DNA of 46,324 bases, taken from positions 1 through 46,324 of the forward strand of contig CAZAEF010000001.1 in the NCBI GenBank assembly GCA_964484315.1, read 5' to 3'. Below the pieces are notes generated by a model. That model worked only from the letters and a program-made list of their open reading frames with translations, searched no databases and was not told the origin of the DNA. Each line of letters starts with the position of its first letter. The stretch's first letter is position 1. The translations under genes and the position numbers were made by a program. Positions 40,812-46,324 of this stretch are shown in pieces. Origin of the DNA: an uncultured Candidatus Saccharibacteria bacterium (GTDB taxonomy: Bacteria; Patescibacteriota; Minisyncoccia; Phycocordibacterales; PALSA-1337).

Positions 40812-41162
40812 ATGAATAAAACTTACATTATCGACGCGCAGGGAAAGAAGATGGGAAGAGTAGCGAGCCAAGCTGCTGTATATCTCATGGGTAAAAATTC
40901 AGTGAAATTTGCTCGCAATATCGCTCCAGAGGTAAAAGTTTCTATAGTGAACTGCTCGAAAGCGAATATTGATTCAAAAAAGAAAGATAATAAAGAATAT
41001 GTCACATTCACTGGATTCCGCGGAGGTATCAATACAGAGAAGCTTGGAGCGTTGATCGAACGCAAGGGTGTGACCGAAGTATTCAAGCGTGCGGTTACTC
41101 GTATGCTTCCATCTAATAGTCTTCGCAAGGCCATGCTCAAGAATTTAACTATCACTGAATAA
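40812..41162 (+). CDS. rplM: 50S ribosomal protein L13 (short, 116 aa)
   Basis: IIDAQGKKMGRVASQAAVYLMGK.. and MLPSNSLRKAMLKNL. Confidence 0.9.
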   Translation: MNKTYIIDAQGKKMGRVASQAAVYLMGKNSVKFARNIAPEVKVSIVNCSKANIDSKKKDNKEYVTFTGFRGGINTEKLGALIERKGVTEVFKRAVTRMLPSNSLRKAMLKNLTITE

Positions 41163-41167
41163 TTTTT

Positions 41168-41587
41168 ATGACACCTATCAAACCTACAACATCAGATCGA
41201 TATATAGAGACTGTCGGACGTCGCAAGACTTCCATTGCTCGTGTGCGCATCACACCAGCTACGAAGACTACTTATGAGATCAATGGTAAGACTCTAGAAG
41301 AATATTTTCCAACTCGACAGCTACAGATCACAGCACAGGAAGCTTTTGCCTCTTCGAAACTCACGACAACCAAGTTCAAGCTCACAGCATTGCTCAAGGG
41401 TGGAGGTATCAGCTCTCAAGCAGACGCTCTAAGACATGGTATAGCTAGAGGGCTTATAGAATATGATATAGAACTCCGAGGTAAGCTCAAGAAAGCAGGA
41501 TTCCTCAAACGAGATCCTAGAGCAAAAGAACGCCGAAAGTTCGGTCTCAAGAAAGCTCGCAAGGCTCCACAGTGGAGTAAGAGATAA
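41168..41587 (+). CDS. rpsI: 30S ribosomal protein S9
   Basis: GRRKTSIARVRI.., GGGISSQADALRHGIARGL, and a C-terminal ..KKARKAPQWSKR. Confidence 0.95.
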   Translation: MTPIKPTTSDRYIETVGRRKTSIARVRITPATKTTYEINGKTLEEYFPTRQLQITAQEAFASSKLTTTKFKLTALLKGGGISSQADALRHGIARGLIEYDIELRGKLKKAGFLKRDPRAKERRKFGLKKARKAPQWSKR

Positions 41588-41601
41588 ATTTATAAAAAAA
41601 G

Positions 41602-41623
41602 AAACCGCATTTGCGGTTTTTTT
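41602..41623 (+). terminator. Intrinsic terminator after rpsI
   Basis: AAACCGC-ATTT-GCGGTTT followed by further Ts. Confidence 0.8.
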
Positions 41624-41624
41624 A

Positions 41625-41652
41625 TTGCAAATTTTTATTTTATACGTATACT
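41625..41652 (+). promoter_or_regulatory. Promoter TTGCAA-16-TATACT
   Basis: -35 at 41625-30, -10 at 41647-52, and 8 nt to the grpE ATG at 41661. Confidence 0.55.
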
Positions 41653-41660
41653 GATTCTAT

Positions 41661-42203
41661 ATGAATGAAGATGAAATAAAAGTAGAAGCTGACGAAAATC
41701 TCGATGATTCTGTGGTCGCCGAAGAGTCTCTCCAAGATACGATAAAGAACCTTCGCGAGAAGCTCAAAAAAGCTATTGCTGAAAAACAAGAGTACCTAAC
41801 TAACTGGCAGAAGGACAAGGCTGAGTTTATCAATGCTCGTAAGCGAGATGAACAATCACAGAAGGAGTTTATAAAATACTCAAACGAGGGATTGATCTCC
41901 GAGCTTTTCCCTGTGCTCGACAGTTTTAATATGGCAATGGGGAATAAGGAGGTATGGGAGAAGGTGGATAAGAATTGGCGTAATGGTGTAGAGTATATTG
42001 CAAGCCAGCTCAAGAAAGTTCTCGAAGATCATGGACTTACGGAGATTGATCCTATTGGTCAGAAATTTGACCCTATGCGTGACGAGGCTATAGAGGATGG
42101 AAAAGAGAGTGATATTATCACAACTGTCATACAGAAAGGATATTCTCTCAATGGAAAGATTGTGAAGGCGCCGAAGGTGAAGATTGGAGAGGTGCAGAAA
42201 TAA
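41661..42203 (+). CDS. grpE: Nucleotide exchange factor GrpE
   Basis: Coiled-coil N-terminus and C-terminal IDPIGQKFDPMRDEAI..GYSLNGKIVKAPKV. Confidence 0.9.
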   Translation: MNEDEIKVEADENLDDSVVAEESLQDTIKNLREKLKKAIAEKQEYLTNWQKDKAEFINARKRDEQSQKEFIKYSNEGLISELFPVLDSFNMAMGNKEVWEKVDKNWRNGVEYIASQLKKVLEDHGLTEIDPIGQKFDPMRDEAIEDGKESDIITTVIQKGYSLNGKIVKAPKVKIGEVQK

Positions 42204-42205
42204 GA

Positions 42206-42233
42206 TTGACTTTTTAGATAACCGGTATATACT
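42206..42233 (+). promoter_or_regulatory. Promoter-like TTGACT-16-TATACT immediately after the grpE stop
   Basis: -35 at 42206-11 and -10 at 42228-33. Confidence 0.4.
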
Positions 42234-42239
42234 TTCAGT

Positions 42240-42320
42240 ATGATACACGTGAGGATAACTTCCTCCTTCGACATTGTAGTCGATAGCGCGTGTCCATCAA
42301 AAGCCCTTCGGGGCTTTTGT
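42240..42320 (+). ncRNA. Possible ~80-nt sRNA (or simply the grpE 3' UTR)
   Basis: Three hairpins: GAGGA-TAACT-TCCTC (42251-65), CGAC-ATTGTA-GTCG (42269-82), and the terminator AAAAGCCC-TTCG-GGGCTTTT (42299-318). Confidence 0.3.
42299..42318. terminator. Bidirectional intrinsic terminator
   Basis: An 8-bp stem with a TTCG loop, A-run on one side and T-run on the other. It sits between the grpE stop and the stop of the minus-strand ORF at 42323. Confidence 0.75.
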
Positions 42321-42322
42321 TG

Positions 42323-42706
42323 TTAATGAGACTCGGAGCGGTGCATGATGCTATAAAAATGTTTAGGTCCTTTATTTATCTGTCTAACAACTACACGAAT
42401 TTTTCTATCAACCGCAAGAGCATAGGTAAGACCCCAGTACTTGATCTCATCGCCATTACTTTTTTCGCTCCTAAGGTCACAGACCGAATTTTTGGAGGAG
42501 ATGACTTCCGTAGCAAGAGGTAGCAAGGTAAGACGATCGAGTACTTCTTTTCTTGGACGCATCCTTCCCTTGCGTTCAAAATGGTTGAATCCATGTCTGT
42601 TGAACACAATGACCTCATTTTCCAAATGAGGACATTTGACCGGCAAGTATTTTAGGTATCTTTCATGAGCTTTCCTTACTTTTATATGATATTCTTCGTC
42701 ATTCAT
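42323..42706 (-). CDS. Hypothetical basic 127-aa protein (orphan)
   Basis: ATG 42706. By hand count 25 K+R against 16 D+E, plus 8 His. Motifs FNRHGFNHFERKGR and IRVVVRQINKGPKHFYSIM. No family recognised with confidence. Confidence 0.6.
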   Translation of the reverse strand: MNDEEYHIKVRKAHERYLKYLPVKCPHLENEVIVFNRHGFNHFERKGRMRPRKEVLDRLTLLPLATEVISSKNSVCDLRSEKSNGDEIKYWGLTYALAVDRKIRVVVRQINKGPKHFYSIMHRSESH

Positions 42707-42727
42707 TCCACAAGCATACAGAAGCGA

Positions 42728-42771
42728 GATAAAATTCTGATAAAATAAACATAAAATTTAGATAAAATTTC
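42728..42771. repeat. Four tandem 11-bp direct repeats (GATAAAATTCT / GATAAAATAAA / CATAAAATTTA / GATAAAATTTC)
   Basis: The core SATAAAAT starts at 42728, 42739, 42750 and 42761, an exact 11-bp phase. The array lies 22-65 nt upstream of the minus-strand ATG at 42706. Confidence 0.85.
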
Positions 42772-42849
42772 AATTACACGATAGAAAATGATGTTGCTGG
42801 AAGTGGCACTTGTGTTTTCAAATGATGAAAATAGATCTGGACAACTTCG

Positions 42850-43131
42850 TCAAAACAGATATAATACAACCATGTTAACCCCGTATTCTCGCTCACAATT
42901 TGTCACGAAAATACTGACCTCTCCATCCGGTGAGAAGTTCTCAGTTGTCTTTCTCGTTGCTCTCGTAAATGGAGAAGTGAAGGCACAGATGGTTTCTGCG
43001 ACGCTAGTATCCGTCGAAAAGCCTGCTTCAGTATGCCTCCCTATTTCTTCTACGAAATCTCCTACGACTTTTACATATACCCCTTCTTCTACACAAAAGA
43101 TTTCACTCTTTGATTCTCTTTTCTTTTTCAA
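42850..43131 (-). CDS. Hypothetical mildly acidic 93-aa protein (TTG start); mutually exclusive with plus-strand ORF 42788/42872..43192
   Basis: First-codon positions are purine-rich (RNY-like), and the K/E-rich N-terminus resembles other proteins in this window. The overlapping plus-strand frame is T-rich at position 1 and S/T/P/F-rich, which is shadow-like. There is no ATG start. Confidence 0.35.
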   Translation of the reverse strand: MKKKRESKSEIFCVEEGVYVKVVGDFVEEIGRHTEAGFSTDTSVAETICAFTSPFTRATRKTTENFSPDGEVSIFVTNCEREYGVNMVVLYLF

Positions 43132-43176
43132 TAGCCAACCGACCCGCGCGCCGTCTCTTCAGATATGTTTTCTATC

Positions 43177-43196
43177 CACTTTAGTTAACTAAAGTG
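43177..43196. promoter_or_regulatory. 20-bp perfect palindrome CACTTTAGTTAACTAAAGTG (operator-like)
   Basis: Each half is the exact reverse complement of the other, centred on GTTAAC. It lies 46-65 nt upstream of the TTG start at 43131 on the minus strand. Confidence 0.5.
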
Positions 43197-43244
43197 TCGA
43201 GAAAAGAAGTAGTGAGAAAAGAGTTCATTAAAAATTGACAAATA

Positions 43245-43275
43245 GATAAAAGAAAACAGCACCGATCGGGGTGCC
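43245..43275 (-). terminator. Intrinsic terminator of the small membrane-protein gene
   Basis: GCACC-CCGATC-GGTGC on the minus strand, followed by TGTTTTCTTTTATC. Confidence 0.6.
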
Positions 43276-43315
43276 ATCTGTAAGTTTTAACAAGGCTTAC
43301 AACTTGGGTAGAATA

Positions 43316-43633
43316 CTACCATTTGGCTCTCTTGAATTTATCCCAAAAGATGTCATCCAAGATGCGGAATGCCAAGAAGCCTAAGGCTACAAGGAATGAT
43401 TGAGCAGGAGTCCTGCCCCAACTTTGCAATGCGACACTAAGGATTGTCGCGAAACAAAGAGCTTGAAGGATCTTCACGAATGTGTTTTTTGATAGGTACT
43501 TGAAACTCAGACTACCCACAAGTAAGAGAGCCACGGCAATCCACTGATTTGTACTAAGTATATTCATGTTGAATTGTGGTTTGAAAGGATACAAAGCGTG
43601 AGTGCCTTGCGATTCCTTACTGCCACAATCCAA
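43316..43633 (-). CDS. Small membrane protein, three predicted TM segments (105 aa from TTG 43633, or 83 aa from ATG 43567)
   Basis: Hydrophobic stretches WIAVALLLVGSLSF, ILQALCFATILSVAL and SFLVALGFLAFRIL. Own promoter and terminator. Confidence 0.55.
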   Translation of the reverse strand: MDCGSKESQGTHALYPFKPQFNMNILSTNQWIAVALLLVGSLSFKYLSKNTFVKILQALCFATILSVALQSWGRTPAQSFLVALGFLAFRILDDIFWDKFKRAKW

Positions 43634-43659
43634 CTTTTCGAAGAACTAAAATTATTGGT

Positions 43660-43689
43660 ATTGTAGCACGCTTATTACCTATTTGTCAA
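43660..43689 (-). promoter_or_regulatory. Minus-strand promoter TTGACA-18-TACAAT
   Basis: The reverse complement of 43684-89 is TTGACA and that of 43660-65 is TACAAT. The promoter faces away from dnaK. Confidence 0.55.
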
Positions 43690-43759
43690 GTTACCAAAAA
43701 TTCTCATTAAATTAGCCCCGAATTACCCTAAATTAACAACCCAAAATAACAAAAAAAAC

Positions 43760-45676
43760 ATGAGTAAAATTATCGGAATCGATCTCGGTACCACCAACTC
43801 TGCCATCGCAGTGATGGAAGGAGGAGTACCAAAAATACTTGAGAACGCTGAAGGTGCTCGCACAACTCCTTCCATCATTGCTCAGTCAAAGACTGGCGAT
43901 CGAATGGTAGGTCTACTCGCGAAGCGACAAGGTGTTACCAATCCAAAAAATACAATTTATCAGATCAAGCGCTTTATCGGCCACAACTTCGACGATCCAG
44001 CAGTACAGAAAGACCGCGCGTCTGTGCCTTTCGATATGCAGAAGTCAGCAACCGGAGGCATCGAAGTAAAGATGGGAGAAAAATGGTACAGACCAGAAGA
44101 AATCTCTGCAATGATACTTACAAAGCTTAAGAATGACGCAGAAGCTCGTATAGGAGAAAAGATCACAGAAGCAGTCATCACAGTTCCTGCGTATTTCAAC
44201 GATGCTCAGCGACAGGCTACAAAGGACGCCGGTCAGATCGCTGGTCTCGATGTCAAGCGCATTATCAATGAGCCGACTGCAGCCGCGCTCGCCTACGGGT
44301 TCAACAAAAAGAAAGATGAGAAGATAGCAGTCTTCGACTTCGGTGGAGGAACATTCGATGTGTCAGTACTCGAAGTGGGTGATGATGTTGTGGAGGTAAA
44401 ATCTACAGACGGAGATGCTCACCTAGGAGGAAAAGATATTGATCAGAAGATTATTCATTGGCTTGCAGAAGAATTCAAGAAGACTTCTGGCGTTGATGTT
44501 CGAAAGGATACACTCGCTCTACAGCGACTAGATGAAGCTGCAGAAAAGGCAAAAATTGAGCTTTCTACAGCTATGCAGACGGATGTGAATATACCATTCA
44601 TTACTTCTGGTGCAGATGGACCACAGCATCTTCTCATTACCATGACTCGTGCCAAACTCGAGGAATTGACCAAGGAGTTCATCGATCGAGCAATGGAGAT
44701 TACAAAGCGTGCCATGGCCGCTTCTCCGTTCAAGGTGGGTGACCTTCATGAAGTCATCCTTGTTGGAGGCCAGACACGTATGCCCGCTATGCAAAAAGCG
44801 GTGAAGGAGTTCTTCGGTAAGGAACCACACATGGGTGTGAATCCTGACGAAGTGGTTGCGGTAGGCGCTGCTATTCAAGGAGGAATTCTTGGTGGAGATG
44901 TAAAGGATGTCCTTCTCTTGGACGTCATTCCACTCTCACTTGGTATAGAGACAATGGGAGGAGTTGCTACGAAACTCATTGAAAAGAATACAACAATTCC
45001 AACTCAAAGATCACAAGTATTCTCTACAGCAGCGGATAATCAGACATCAGTAGAAATTCATATTAGTCAGGGAGAGCGCGCAATGGCTTCTGACAACAAA
45101 TCGCTCGGAAGATTTATCCTAGATGGTATTCCACCAGCACCAAGAGGTATGCCACAGGTAGAAGTTTCATTTGACATCGATGCAAATGGAATATTGAATG
45201 TGACTGCAAAAGATAAAGCCACAGGCAAGGCGAACTCTATAAAGATCACAGCTTCATCAGGACTTTCAAAAGAGGAAGTAGAGAAGATGAAGAAGGATGC
45301 AGAGGCAAATGCTACAGAAGATGCAAAGAAAAAAGAAATGATAGAGGCCAAGAACATAGCTGAGCAACTCATCTATACTTCAGAAAAATCTCTCAAGGAC
45401 GCAGGAGAAAAAGTGCCAGCAGAACTTCGCAAAGCAATCGAAGACAAGATAGCGGATGTGAAGACTCGTAAAGAGGGAACAGATGGATCGGCTTTGAAAA
45501 CTGCGACAGAGGCGCTTTCGACCGAACTTCAGAAGATAGGTCAATATATGCAACAGACACCACCAGCAGGAGGTCAGACAGGAGGACAACAAGGTGGTCA
45601 AGAAGGTAATCCAGGAGGAGAGCAGAAACCGCCAGAGGGGGATGTGAAGGATGCGGAGTTCAAGGAGAAGAAATAG
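43760..45676 (+). CDS. dnaK: Molecular chaperone DnaK (Hsp70)
   Basis: [32 protein letters not shown]. Gly/Gln-rich C-terminal tail. Confidence 0.97.
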
Positions 45677-45701
45677 TGAACAATAAGTTAATTAAAATAG
45701 A

Positions 45702-45729
45702 AAAAGTGGCTAAAAAGTAGCCACTTTTT
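45702..45729 (+). terminator. Intrinsic terminator after dnaK
   Basis: AAAAGTGGCTA-AAAAG-TAGCCACTTTT followed by T. Confidence 0.8.
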
Positions 45730-45775
45730 CGTTGGCAGAAGATAGATATCAAAGTAAAAGTATTTCGAGAGGATA

Positions 45776-45812
45776 ATAAAAAAGCGCCCGCGAGTCGTGA
45801 GACAGGCGGGGC
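45776..45812 (-). terminator. Probable intrinsic terminator of the minus-strand 85-aa gene
   Basis: GC-rich interrupted hairpin (GCCC(G)CG..GTC-GTGA-GAC..CGGGGC), followed on the minus strand by a T-run (A-run 45775-83 on the plus strand). Confidence 0.5.
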
Positions 45813-45821
45813 ACTTATAAA

Positions 45822-46079
45822 TTATTCTTGCGTGTCTGTATGATCGAAGTAGTCGAGATCGAACCATCTGGTAATTCCTTCGATATGGATTGTGTTTCTC
45901 GTGTTCCCTTCGTTCAGACTGTCCACAATTACATCTTCATCAGCATTGAAAAATCTGCTAGAGTCGAGGGTTTTGAGTTTGATGGGGGGAGCAATGTTCC
46001 AGATCGTACGTCCATAGTCGTCAATCTTAGACACAGTGAGTCTCCCTGTCATTTTCAACTGTTCCAGTGTTACTGGCAT
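45822..46079 (-). CDS. Hypothetical 85-aa protein (orphan)
   Basis: ATG 46079. Purine-rich first-codon positions favour this frame over the overlapping plus-strand ORF 45828..46169. No family recognised. Confidence 0.5.
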   Translation of the reverse strand: MPVTLEQLKMTGRLTVSKIDDYGRTIWNIAPPIKLKTLDSSRFFNADEDVIVDSLNEGNTRNTIHIEGITRWFDLDYFDHTDTQE

Positions 46080-46104
46080 GATTGGCCTTTTGTTAATGTT
46101 CAGT

Positions 46105-46124
46105 GCAAGACTTCCAAGTCTTGC
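46105..46124. other. 8-bp stem hairpin GCAAGACT-TCCA-AGTCTTGC
   Basis: A perfect inverted repeat. On the plus strand it is followed by CGATTTATTTTT (terminator-like). On the minus strand it lies in the 5' leader of the 85-aa gene. Confidence 0.5.
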
Positions 46125-46324
46125 CGATTTATTTTTACATTACTATTCTATATACTTCATGTCAAGTAGTTAGAATGATAATGACAGAGTATAATTAACC
46201 CATCACAAATTCGCGTACTCTAGACAACAGCCAAAAAACAAATCAGCGACTGAATCAAAATTTATAGTTACATCTCAACACATCGCTCTATATATCACAT
46301 AGTACCAATGAATTTCTGATAATT

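What the first reader, a model, noticed from the sequence alone, without database searches (positions are those of the whole stretch)
42204..43759. The grpE-dnaK pair is split by a 1.5-kb opposite-strand cassette of three small orphan genes with its own promoter, terminators and operator-like repeats
grpE and dnaK are normally adjacent or co-transcribed (established knowledge). Here a self-contained minus-strand module separates them. It starts with promoter TTGACA-18-TACAAT (43689-43660). Next is an 83-105-aa three-TM protein (43316..43633) with terminator 43245-75. A 20-bp perfect palindrome follows (43177-96), then a mildly acidic 93-aa ORF (42850..43131). Four phased 11-bp repeats follow (42728-71), then a basic, His-rich 127-aa ORF (42323..42706; 25 K+R against 16 D+E by hand count). 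A bidirectional terminator (42299-318) ends the module. None of the three proteins matches a family I can name, and no integrase or transposase is present. A small membrane protein, an acidic protein and a basic protein with autoregulatory-looking DNA motifs, inserted into a stress operon, suggests a toxin-antitoxin, abortive-infection or other conflict module. That is inference only.
Basis: partly seen in the sequence, partly recalled or inferred. Interest (0 to 1): 0.65.

Follow-up and report, generated by a model that had tools for sequence, protein, structure and literature searches.

The report
Three separate units, including protein–sRNA pair
The DNA between grpE and dnaK is not one three-gene cassette: it holds an inserted gene for a predicted RNA-cutting protein paired with a previously undescribed small structured RNA (a possible toxin–antitoxin pair), a small chaperone-operon gene conserved across the lineage, and a variable slot with an orphan membrane gene.

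Summary
The 1.56-kb grpE–dnaK spacer holds three independent units.

(A) 42204–~42835 is an insertion that the closest relative lacks. It carries the 127-aa basic protein on the minus strand. This is a distant LPD3/PBECR-like protein with a BECR-type His/Ser layout. That RNA lies convergent to all 9 family members that could be tested with a covariance model, in unrelated contexts. It shows strong covariation and matches no Rfam family. I read it as a candidate RNA-antitoxin TA pair; this is inference.

(B) The "93-aa acidic ORF" is the antisense shadow of a plus-strand 106-aa gene (42872–43192). That gene lies between grpE and dnaK in about 80 Paceibacteria-type species. It matches no known family.

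(C) 43223–43692 is a minus-strand unit: promoter, conserved 67-nt leader hairpin, orphan 83-aa membrane ORF and terminator. It occupies a slot that carries unrelated small ORFs in other species.

No toxicity or expression data exist.

The parts
41661..42203 (+). grpE (left anchor)
   Evidence: Pfam GrpE E=5.5e-34.
42206..42233 (+). Promoter of the sRNA, TTGACT-16-TATACT
   Evidence: Consensus scan gives 10/12. The -35 and -10 are invariant in window, L001 and L004. Equivalent TTGACT/TTGAAG/TTGCAA-N16-18-TAnnnT sites precede the RNA in L003, L095, L099, L100, L103 and L104. Function is inferred.
42238..42324 (+). About 87-nt structured sRNA: an outer helix enclosing two hairpins, then a terminator hairpin (42298-42319) plus a U-tract. 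It is convergent with the 127-aa gene and abuts its stop codon.
   Evidence: Fold z=-5.5. About 90% identical in L001 and L004, where the proteins are only 63-72% identical. CM R2 hits at the same relative position in 9 of 9 family loci, E 7e-23 to 3e-4, and none in about 80 loci without the protein. 96.8% of cells are paired, 18 of 28 pairs show double changes, and 0 of 500 shuffles reach this. Conserved G-U pairs fix the strand. No Rfam hit.
42323..42706 (-). 127-aa basic protein, a solo LPD3/PBECR-like domain (predicted BECR-type RNase)
   Evidence: Orthologues at 57-72% identity. The family has 909 representatives. AF2 pLDDT is 95.6, with helices followed by a 4-stranded sheet. H42 is invariant and S119 is conserved in >=90% of sequences. 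31 of 79 members hit PF18798, one above the gathering score over the full length. One member hits PBECR3 at E=2.9e-4.
42728..42771 (.). Four phased 11-bp GATAAAAT repeats upstream of the 127-aa gene, in the divergent promoter region
   Evidence: Partly conserved in L001 and L004. Single ATTTTAT(C) copies lie upstream of family members in L003 and L095. Their role (UP-element-like bend or operator) is inferred.
42838..42865 (+). Promoter of the small conserved gene, TGGACA-16-TATAAT, ending 6 nt before the ATG (probably a leaderless mRNA)
   Evidence: 11/12 in the scan. Conserved in L001, L004, L005 and L011 at the same distance from the ATG.
42872..43192 (+). 106-aa lineage-conserved small protein: N-terminal 3-stranded beta sheet, disordered tail, invariant C-terminal ...LFFFNSQPTRAPS motif. 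The window copy has a 10-aa extension.
   Evidence: 78 homologues. 80 genome loci show the order grpE - small gene - dnaK on one strand. Codon-position test. AF2 model. No Pfam or PDB match.
43177..43196 (.). Perfect 20-bp palindrome CACTTTAGTTAACTAAAGTG across the stop codon of the small gene
   Evidence: Lies in a window-specific segment absent from L001 and L004. Only one unrelated 14-mer match in 98 loci. Function unknown.
43223..43256 (.). Conserved left border GTTCATTAAAAATTGACAAATAGATAAAAGAAAA. It contains the inverted copy of the promoter's TTGACAAATAGR and the U-tract of the minus-strand terminator.
   Evidence: Inverted repeat I4, 18 nt, 89% complementary. The motif lies at this place in many species.
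43254..43279 (-). Intrinsic terminator of the minus-strand cassette
   Evidence: Equivalent hairpins plus UUUUCUUUUA occur in L001, L005, L011, L029, L052 and L053.
43316..43567 (-). Orphan 83-aa hydrophobic ORF (cargo of the variable slot)
   Evidence: ORF listed. Hydrophobic segments. No homologue among 5.8 billion proteins. Expression is inferred from the promoter, leader and terminator.
43568..43634 (-). Conserved 67-nt leader hairpin (three stacked helices) ending directly at the AUG
   Evidence: Fold z=-5.6, -3.6 and -6.9 on the minus strand and weaker on the plus strand. CM R1 hits only in window, L052, L053 and L029, always at this place and on this strand, each in front of a different ORF. 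96.8% paired, 4 compensatory pairs, invariant G-U pairs. No Rfam hit.
43660..43689 (-). Promoter TTGACA-18-TACAAT of the minus-strand cassette, back to back with the dnaK upstream region
   Evidence: The -35 and spacer (TTGACAAATAGG...) are conserved in L001, L005, L011, L029 and L053.
43760..45676 (+). dnaK (right anchor)
   Evidence: ORF. 92-94% identical to the HSP70-annotated genes of L001 and L004.

Best explanation
The grpE-dnaK spacer is a mosaic of three independent transcription units.

Unit A (42204-~42835) is an inserted accessory two-component module. It has a minus-strand gene for a 127-aa basic LPD3/PBECR-like protein, which I read as a metal-independent BECR-type endoRNase. It also has a convergent plus-strand gene for an ~87-nt structured sRNA with its own promoter. 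The sRNA's terminator hairpin abuts or overlaps the protein's stop codon. I propose that the sRNA is the antidote or regulator of the protein. It could act by binding the protein (type III-like). It could instead pair with the shared 3' terminator region of the mRNA (type I-like, as in par or txpA/RatA). Either way the pair would behave as an addictive or defensive toxin-antitoxin module that has landed in a gap which collects such genes.

Unit B (42838-43192) is not foreign. It is a small plus-strand gene, probably leaderless, kept directly upstream of dnaK throughout this Patescibacteria lineage. Its tail motif LFFFNSQPTRAPS is invariant. I take it to be a lineage-specific DnaK partner or regulator.

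Unit C (43223-43692) is a minus-strand promoter-leader-ORF-terminator unit. It sits in a second variable slot whose borders are conserved while its small ORF differs between species. Here the ORF is an orphan membrane protein.

Shown: the anatomy, the conservation, the synteny, the RNA structures and the protein-RNA co-occurrence. Inferred: RNase activity, toxicity, the antidote role of the sRNA, DnaK binding and expression.
For: Mosaic and strands:
- ORFs and alignments.
- The codon-position test puts the middle gene on the plus strand.
- 80 species loci show the order rpsI-grpE-small gene-dnaK on one strand, with variable gaps on both sides of the small gene.

Unit A is an insertion:
- L011 has grpE 89% and dnaK 94% identical to the window but only 42 nt between grpE and the small gene.
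- L001 and L004 carry the pair.
- Relatives of the protein sit in unrelated contexts.

sRNA:
- The promoter and a fold with z=-5.5.
- CM hits lie convergent to 9 of 9 family members. Two of these were picked afterwards as a test.
- There are no hits in loci without the protein.
- 18 of 28 pairs covary, and 0 of 500 shuffles reach the observed values.
- No Rfam family matches.

Protein:
- The AF2 model is confident.
- His42 lies in a helix and Ser119 in the last strand. This matches the BECR active-site layout described in PMC5512222, section 19.
- There are LPD3 and PBECR3 hits among family members.

Hotspot: MNT+HepT, MazF, YtxH-like and MFS genes occupy the same gap in other species.

Unit C:
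- The leader hairpin is conserved in 4 species in front of 4 different ORFs.
- 43 loci have a minus-strand small ORF in this slot, almost all unrelated to one another, and 16 have TM-like segments.
Against: - There is no experimental or expression evidence for any unit.
- The window's own protein does not reach any Pfam threshold.
- Foldseek finds no significant PDB or BFVD match for it, so the BECR assignment rests on topology, two residues and sub-threshold HMM hits.
- PADLOC has no match.
- The sRNA body has no complementarity to the mRNA's translation start. It is not a tandem-repeat RNA. It therefore fits neither type I nor type III TA definitions cleanly.
- Co-occurrence was tested on only 9-10 of about 900 family representatives.
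- The DnaK-partner role of the small protein rests only on gene position and on a motif resemblance recalled from memory.
- The membrane ORF has no homologue and could be untranslated.
Confidence: 0.6

Rival explanations
1. One reading: one self-contained minus-strand cassette of three small orphan proteins (membrane, acidic, basic) acts together as a TA, abortive-infection or conflict module.
For: All the listed ORFs, the promoter, the terminators and the repeats exist. The site does collect TA genes in other species.
Against: - The acidic ORF is a shadow of a conserved plus-strand gene.
- The three units occur independently. L011 has the small gene and a different slot-C ORF but no 127-aa gene. 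L004 has the 127-aa gene and no slot-C unit. L003, L095 and other loci have the 127-aa gene elsewhere.
- PADLOC finds nothing.
Confidence: 0.03
2. The protein-sRNA pair is real but is not a toxin-antitoxin system. The 127-aa protein would be a non-toxic RNA-binding or RNA-processing factor whose partner or substrate is the sRNA (a small RNP). Alternatively, the sRNA only tunes the protein's expression through the shared terminator.
For: - The conserved three-way-junction fold has an invariant loop and junction bases (CAUUGUAG, GAURGC), as expected for a protein-binding RNA.
- The protein is basic.
- There is no TIR complementarity and no PADLOC hit.
- The Mu MuF PBECR domain is predicted to be an inactive RNA binder (PMC5512222).
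Against: - The His/Ser active-site layout is conserved.
- The gene is patchy among close relatives and sits in different contexts, as accessory or selfish genes do.
- The superfamily is conflict-associated (PMC5512222).
Confidence: 0.3
3. Unit C is a type I toxin-antitoxin-like locus: a small membrane-damaging peptide whose translation is held off by a stable 5' leader hairpin, with an unidentified antisense RNA.
For: - There is a small hydrophobic ORF in the window, L053 and L029.
- A very stable hairpin ends at the AUG.
- A plus-strand promoter-like site at 43287-43314 points antisense into the ORF.
Against: - The same leader precedes a soluble 73-aa ORF in L052.
- ORFs in the slot are unrelated, and only 16 of 43 are hydrophobic.
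- The antisense promoter is not conserved in L053.
- Relatives L005 and L011 use the same promoter without the leader.
Confidence: 0.12
4. Unit C is mainly regulatory. Strong transcription diverging from dnaK, together with its conserved leader RNA, would modulate dnaK expression. It could do so by promoter competition at the shared TTGACA/TGTCAA site, or by antisense interference with read-through from the small gene. On this reading the downstream ORFs are incidental.
For: - The borders, promoter and leader are conserved while the interior is not.
- The -35 hexamer reads TTGACA on one strand and TTGTCA on the other, just upstream of dnaK.
- The orphan ORF has no homologue.
Against: - The AUG is kept 0-7 nt after the hairpin in all four species.
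- At least one slot-C ORF family is conserved across three species, ending ...TWCRVDEL. The slot can therefore hold real genes.
Confidence: 0.15

Closest known systems
Type I TA systems with convergent, 3'-overlapping RNA antitoxins (par Fst/RNA II of pAD1; txpA/RatA and bsrG/SR4 of Bacillus subtilis). Cited from PMC7472228 and PMC6563280 (search listing) and my own knowledge.
   Same: The protein gene and the sRNA gene are convergent. Each has its own promoter. They share or overlap at a terminator hairpin, so the two RNAs are complementary at their 3' ends.
   Different: The protein is a 127-aa soluble basic predicted RNase, not a <60-aa membrane peptide. The sRNA has a conserved three-way-junction body with no complementarity to the mRNA's 5' region.
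Type III TA systems (ToxIN, TenpIN, AvcID). Cited from PMC12283969 and PMC10511110 (abstracts).
   Same: An enzyme toxin, usually an endoRNase, is paired with a structured non-coding RNA thought to neutralise the protein directly.
   Different: Here the RNA is single-copy, on the opposite strand and downstream of the gene. It is not a tandem-repeat array upstream in the same operon. The protein has no similarity to ToxN/AbiEii-type toxins, and PADLOC is negative.
SymE/SymR and RalR/RalA (type I TA with nuclease-type toxins; my own knowledge, not tested)
   Same: A soluble nuclease-like toxin is controlled by a cis-encoded antisense RNA.
   Different: Those antisense RNAs overlap the 5' end or the coding region. 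The proteins have unrelated folds.
LPD3 (PF18798) and PBECR (PF18812 and related) domains of phage and conjugative-element polyvalent proteins (Iyer et al. 2017, PMC5512222)
   Same: Family members give full-length LPD3 matches and one PBECR3 match. The topology is helices followed by a 4-stranded sheet. A His lies in the helix and a Ser in the last strand.
   Different: The protein is a solo domain in Patescibacteria chromosomes, not part of a polyvalent protein. The window protein itself is below every Pfam threshold. No phage or IMG/VR relatives were found. An RNA partner has not been described for these domains.
DafA of Thermus thermophilus, a small protein encoded in the dnaK operon that assembles DnaK-DnaJ (my own knowledge; an analogy for Unit B only)
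   Same: A small lineage-specific protein is encoded inside the dnaK operon.
   Different: There is no sequence similarity. The position is different (between grpE and dnaK). The function here is untested.

Membership tests
Pfam LPD3 (PF18798) | HMM score at or above the gathering threshold (27 bits) | tested here: inconclusive
   The window protein has no hit at E<=1. 31 of 79 family members hit at E<0.1. P0088 scores 28.2 bits over profile positions 8-113 of 114.
BECR-fold endoRNases (incl. PBECR) | [quoted passage not shown] | tested here: inconclusive
   The AF2 model (pLDDT 95.6) has helices followed by strands 75-83, 86-98, 101-110 and 116-123. Foldseek gives no match with E<0.02 in PDB or BFVD; BrnT and CdiA-CT appear only as weak hits. 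PBECR3 scores E=2.9e-4 for one member, below the gathering score.
BECR-fold endoRNases (incl. PBECR) | Active site: His in the helix and Ser/Thr in strand 4 | tested here: met
   H42 is invariant and lies in helix 37-44. S119 is conserved in >=90% of sequences and lies in the last strand, 116-123. The layout is as described in PMC5512222, section 19. Catalysis was not tested.
Type I toxin-antitoxin | Toxin is a small (<60 aa) hydrophobic peptide | tested here: not met
   The protein is 127 aa, soluble and basic.
Type I toxin-antitoxin | Antitoxin is an antisense RNA complementary to the toxin mRNA | tested here: inconclusive
   The sRNA end runs from 4 nt short of the protein's stop codon to 28 nt inside the coding sequence. 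It shares the terminator hairpin in 7 loci. There is no further complementarity (TIR duplex z between -1.5 and +1.4).
Type III toxin-antitoxin | RNA antitoxin made of tandem repeats upstream of the toxin in one operon, processed by the toxin | tested here: not met
   The RNA is single-copy, on the opposite strand, downstream of the gene and has its own promoter.
Any toxin-antitoxin system | The toxin arrests growth and the cognate antitoxin rescues it | not testable with these tools
   Requires expression experiments.
Known anti-phage defence systems (PADLOC-DB 2.0) | HMM match to a component protein | tested here: not met
   No hit at E<=1 for any of the four ORFs.
Rfam RNA families | Covariance-model match | tested here: not met
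   Only chance-level hits at E<=1 in window 41000-46324 and in L003, L094, L099 and L100. None falls on either RNA.
grpE-dnaK-dnaJ chaperone operon (core membership of the small gene) | Conserved position and strand across the lineage, under purifying selection | tested here: met
   80 species loci have the gene on the dnaK strand directly upstream of dnaK, with grpE upstream on the same strand wherever the locus holds it. Third-position bias is seen, and Arg codon switches CGC/AGG preserve QPTRAPS. Co-transcription was not tested.

The most novel reading that the evidence does not exclude
The LPD3/PBECR-like family has at least 909 cluster representatives. Together with its convergent three-way-junction sRNA it would be an undescribed class of RNA-antidote toxin system or small RNP. 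In it a single-copy structured RNA with its own promoter, sharing the toxin's terminator, neutralises a BECR RNase. Independently, the small protein between grpE and dnaK would be a lineage-specific DnaK partner or regulator of Paceibacteria-type Patescibacteria.
Probability: 0.35. Interest if true: 0.75.

Novelty: new variant of a known kind. Interest (0 to 1): 0.6.

Why it matters
If the protein-sRNA pair is a toxin-antidote system, it adds a new architecture to the RNA-antitoxin systems: a solo BECR-type RNase with a convergent, terminator-sharing, three-way-junction RNA. It would also give a function to the LPD3 domain, which so far has none. It supplies a covariance model for an RNA that is absent from Rfam.

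The work also shows that Paceibacteria-type CPR bacteria keep an uncharacterised small protein inside the grpE-dnaK arrangement. In these reduced genomes chaperone regulation is unknown, which makes this protein a concrete candidate for a DnaK partner or regulator.

Finally, both spacers flanking that gene act as collecting sites for accessory genes, including TA modules and orphan membrane ORFs. This is useful when annotating CPR genomes, where shadow ORFs and leaderless genes mislead gene callers.

Tried and rejected
- Foldseek of the 127-aa model against PDB and BFVD, and of the small-protein model against PDB, gave no significant match. PDB sequence-profile searches gave only noise.
- tblastn of the 127-aa protein against 50,697 phage records found no match.
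- The IMG/VR scan gave one spurious 42-residue match in a high-GC phage. The IMG/VR scan with the sRNA pattern found nothing.
- The metagenome scan for the leader hairpin only re-found the organism of L053.
- The 83-aa membrane ORF had no homologue at all.
- I considered that the inverted repeat TTGACAAATAGR (43235-49 / 43675-89) marks a MITE or an invertible element. I did not adopt this. The interior differs between species while the arms are conserved. The right arm is the promoter and the left arm lies next to the terminator's U-tract. There is no second copy in the window. Its role remains unexplained.
- I considered that the small-gene region is a non-coding RNA. I rejected this because of the codon-position bias and the synonymous Arg codon switches.
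- I looked for base-pairing between the sRNA body and the toxin mRNA. None exceeded shuffled controls.
- The literature searches found no description of an RNA partner for LPD3/PBECR, nor of a small gene between grpE and dnaK in Patescibacteria.
- The resemblance of LFFFN to the sigma-32 'RpoH box' LFFNLR is from memory only and was not tested.
Full report
**What is in the sequence**

grpE (41661..42203; Pfam GrpE E=5.5e-34) and dnaK (43760..45676) are separated by 1,556 bp.
- the promoter TTGACA-18-TACAAT at 43689-43660 (11/12 matches, with TG);
- a minus-strand terminator at 43279-43254;
- a perfect 20-bp palindrome at 43177-43196;
- four GATAAAAT units 11 bp apart at 42728-42771;
- a hairpin at 42298-42319;
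- three minus-strand ORFs of 127, 93 and 105/83 aa.

The hand count for the 127-aa ORF (25 K+R, 16 D+E) is exact. G+C content shows no sharp break.

**The middle 'gene' is on the other strand**

Homologues of the 127-aa protein led to two relatives, L001 (GCA_943349555.1) and L004. In both, the protein also lies between grpE and dnaK. The gene called next to it there is on the dnaK strand.

The three regions were aligned and nine orthologues were put through a codon test. In the plus-strand frame starting at ATG 42872 there are 46-60 third-position changes against 13-24 second-position changes. Arg is kept through CGC/AGG switches in the invariant QPTRAPS motif. The 93-aa acidic ORF is therefore a shadow ORF.

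The real gene (42872..43192, 106 aa) has 78 homologues, all unannotated and with no Pfam domain. A genome scan returned 80 species-level loci from Paceibacteria/Taylorbacteria-type Patescibacteria. tblastn showed the small gene directly upstream of dnaK on the same strand. grpE and rpsI lie further upstream on that strand wherever the locus holds them. In Taylorbacteria the spacers are only 51 and 91 bp.

Its promoter TGGACA-16-TATAAT (42838-42865) ends 6 nt before the ATG. The promoter is conserved at that spacing in relatives. This suggests a leaderless mRNA, which is inference.

AlphaFold gives a confident three-stranded sheet for residues 9-45 and a disordered tail. There is no fold or sequence match in the PDB. 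The tail ends in an invariant ...LFFFNSQPTRAPS motif.

I take it to be a lineage-specific partner or regulator of the DnaK system. That rests on position only.

**The 127-aa gene is half of a protein-RNA pair**

The closest relative is L011, with grpE 89% and dnaK 94% identical to the window. It has only 42 nt between grpE and the small gene. So 42204-~42835 is an insertion.

A profile search shows a large family of about 125-aa solo proteins: 909 representatives at E<=1e-3. The AlphaFold model is confident (pLDDT 95.6). It has helices followed by a four-stranded antiparallel sheet. Foldseek finds nothing significant in PDB or BFVD.

The window protein itself matches no Pfam model. Among family members:
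- 31 of 79 match LPD3 (PF18798);
- one of these is above the gathering score over the full profile;
- one matches PBECR3 at E=2.9e-4.

Iyer et al. 2017 (PMC5512222) define the BECR endoRNase core as an N-terminal helix plus 4-5 strands, with a His in the helix and Ser/Thr in strand 4. Here H42 is invariant in helix 37-44, and S119 is conserved in >=90% of sequences in the last strand. I therefore read the protein as a BECR-type RNase. This is inference.

The 95 nt between the grpE stop and the stop of this gene are about 90% identical in window, L001 and L004. The proteins in those loci are only 63-72% identical. This stretch contains a plus-strand promoter TTGACT-16-TATACT (42206-42233). After it comes a structured RNA with fold z=-5.5.

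The same arrangement follows family members in unrelated contexts: L003, L095, L094, L099 and L100. In each case it consists of a promoter, an outer helix enclosing two hairpins, and a terminator abutting the protein's stop codon.

A covariance model built from five copies gave these results:
- It found the RNA convergent to the protein in 7 loci.
- It found none in about 80 grpE-dnaK loci that lack the protein.
- Two further family members were chosen afterwards as a test. Both had the RNA, at E=2e-7 and 2e-5 in that search.

On the nine sequences, 96.8% of cells pair. 18 of 28 pairs show changes on both sides. 0 of 500 shuffles reach the observed values, and slid controls pair at only 38-50%. 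Recurrent G-U pairs fix the strand. No Rfam family matches.

The RNA body has no complementarity to the mRNA's start region. The only antisense overlap is at the shared 3' hairpin.

The anatomy resembles convergent type I systems in gene layout. It resembles type III systems in pairing a structured RNA with an enzyme. It meets the formal definition of neither.

In other species the same gap holds MNT+HepT, MazF/PemK, YtxH-like and MFS genes. It is thus a collecting site for accessory and TA genes.

**The third unit**

The right-hand part (43223-43692) is a minus-strand unit made of a promoter, a 67-nt hairpin ending exactly at the AUG (43568-43634), the 83-aa hydrophobic ORF (43567..43316) and a terminator.

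The hairpin folds much better on the minus strand: z=-5.6 against -2.6 on the plus strand. A second covariance model finds it in only four species: window, L052, L053 and L029. It is always at this position and on this strand. Each time it precedes a different ORF: 83-aa hydrophobic, 73-aa soluble, 59-aa TM and 51-aa TM. There are four compensatory pairs and invariant G-U pairs.

The membrane ORF has no homologue among 5.8 billion proteins.

Across the lineage, 43 loci have a minus-strand ORF of 42-179 aa in this slot. Almost all are unrelated to each other, and 16 have TM-like segments. The borders are conserved: GTTCATTAAAA...TAAAAGAAAA plus a hairpin on the left, and TTGACAAATAGG on the right. 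L004 lacks the unit altogether. Whether this unit is a real small-protein gene, a type I-like toxin or a regulator of dnaK cannot be decided here.

**Verdict**

There is no three-protein cassette. One of the three ORFs belongs to a genuinely interesting accessory module whose second component is an RNA, not a protein. Another 'ORF' hides a conserved, uncharacterised member of the chaperone gene cluster.

Nothing here has been shown experimentally. RNase activity, toxicity, the antidote role of the RNA and DnaK binding are all inference.

Noticed in passing
window 43235-43249 and 43675-43689: The inverted repeat TTGACAAATAGR brackets the minus-strand cassette. The right copy is the promoter's -35 and spacer. 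The left copy lies just beyond the terminator's U-tract. Both arms are conserved in L001, L005, L016, L089 and L090, while the interior differs. Its role is unexplained; it could be an operator pair, a recombination site or a relic.
   Followed up: partly
window 43177-43196: A perfect 20-bp palindrome with a central GTTAAC lies across the stop codon of the small gene. It sits inside a window-specific segment that adds 10 residues to the protein and is absent from relatives.
   Followed up: partly
window 42872, 42706, 43760, 41661: None of the four start codons has a Shine-Dalgarno sequence. The small gene's promoter ends 6 nt from its ATG. The 127-aa gene has a -10-like TGTATGCT about 7 nt from its ATG. 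Slot-C genes of L005 and L011 show the same spacing. Leaderless or SD-independent initiation seems common in this organism.
   Followed up: no
window 43287-43314 (+): A promoter-like site, TTAACA-16-TAGAAT (10/12), points antisense into the 3' end of the membrane ORF and towards dnaK. It is not conserved in L053.
   Followed up: no
L035, L036, L037, L040, L049, L053, L078, L080 (just after the small gene): In eight species a DUF167/YggU-family gene (Pfam E=9.5e-13) follows the small gene on the same strand, before dnaK.
   Followed up: partly
L035, L036, L051, L060, L066, L068, L075, L083, L089 (gap grpE to small gene): A recurrent minus-strand pair occupies the grpE-proximal gap in several species. 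It consists of a YtxH-like protein and a ~95-aa membrane protein beginning M(Q/E)(T/S)(L/I)IHADIFFF.
   Followed up: partly
L020, L074, L083, L018, L060 (gap grpE to small gene): Nucleotidyltransferase + HepT pairs and PemK/MazF toxins are inserted at the same site in other species (Pfam E=1.6e-20 and 1.7e-15).
   Followed up: yes
window 45822-46079 (-); L005 8004-8216 (-): Downstream of dnaK, where dnaJ follows directly in L001 and L008, the window has an 85-aa minus-strand orphan ORF and L005 has a 70-aa one. The dnaK-dnaJ spacer may be a third variable slot. The window ends before dnaJ.
   Followed up: no
L001 11106-12398: In the relative GCA_943349555.1 a gene with a weak Baseplate_J match sits immediately upstream of the rpsM-rpsK-rpsD ribosomal cluster.
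   Followed up: no
L009/L010 3026-4135: In another relative an Mrr_cat/NA-iREase1 restriction-type gene and two unknown genes are inserted between rpsI and grpE. An rve integrase follows dnaK.
   Followed up: no
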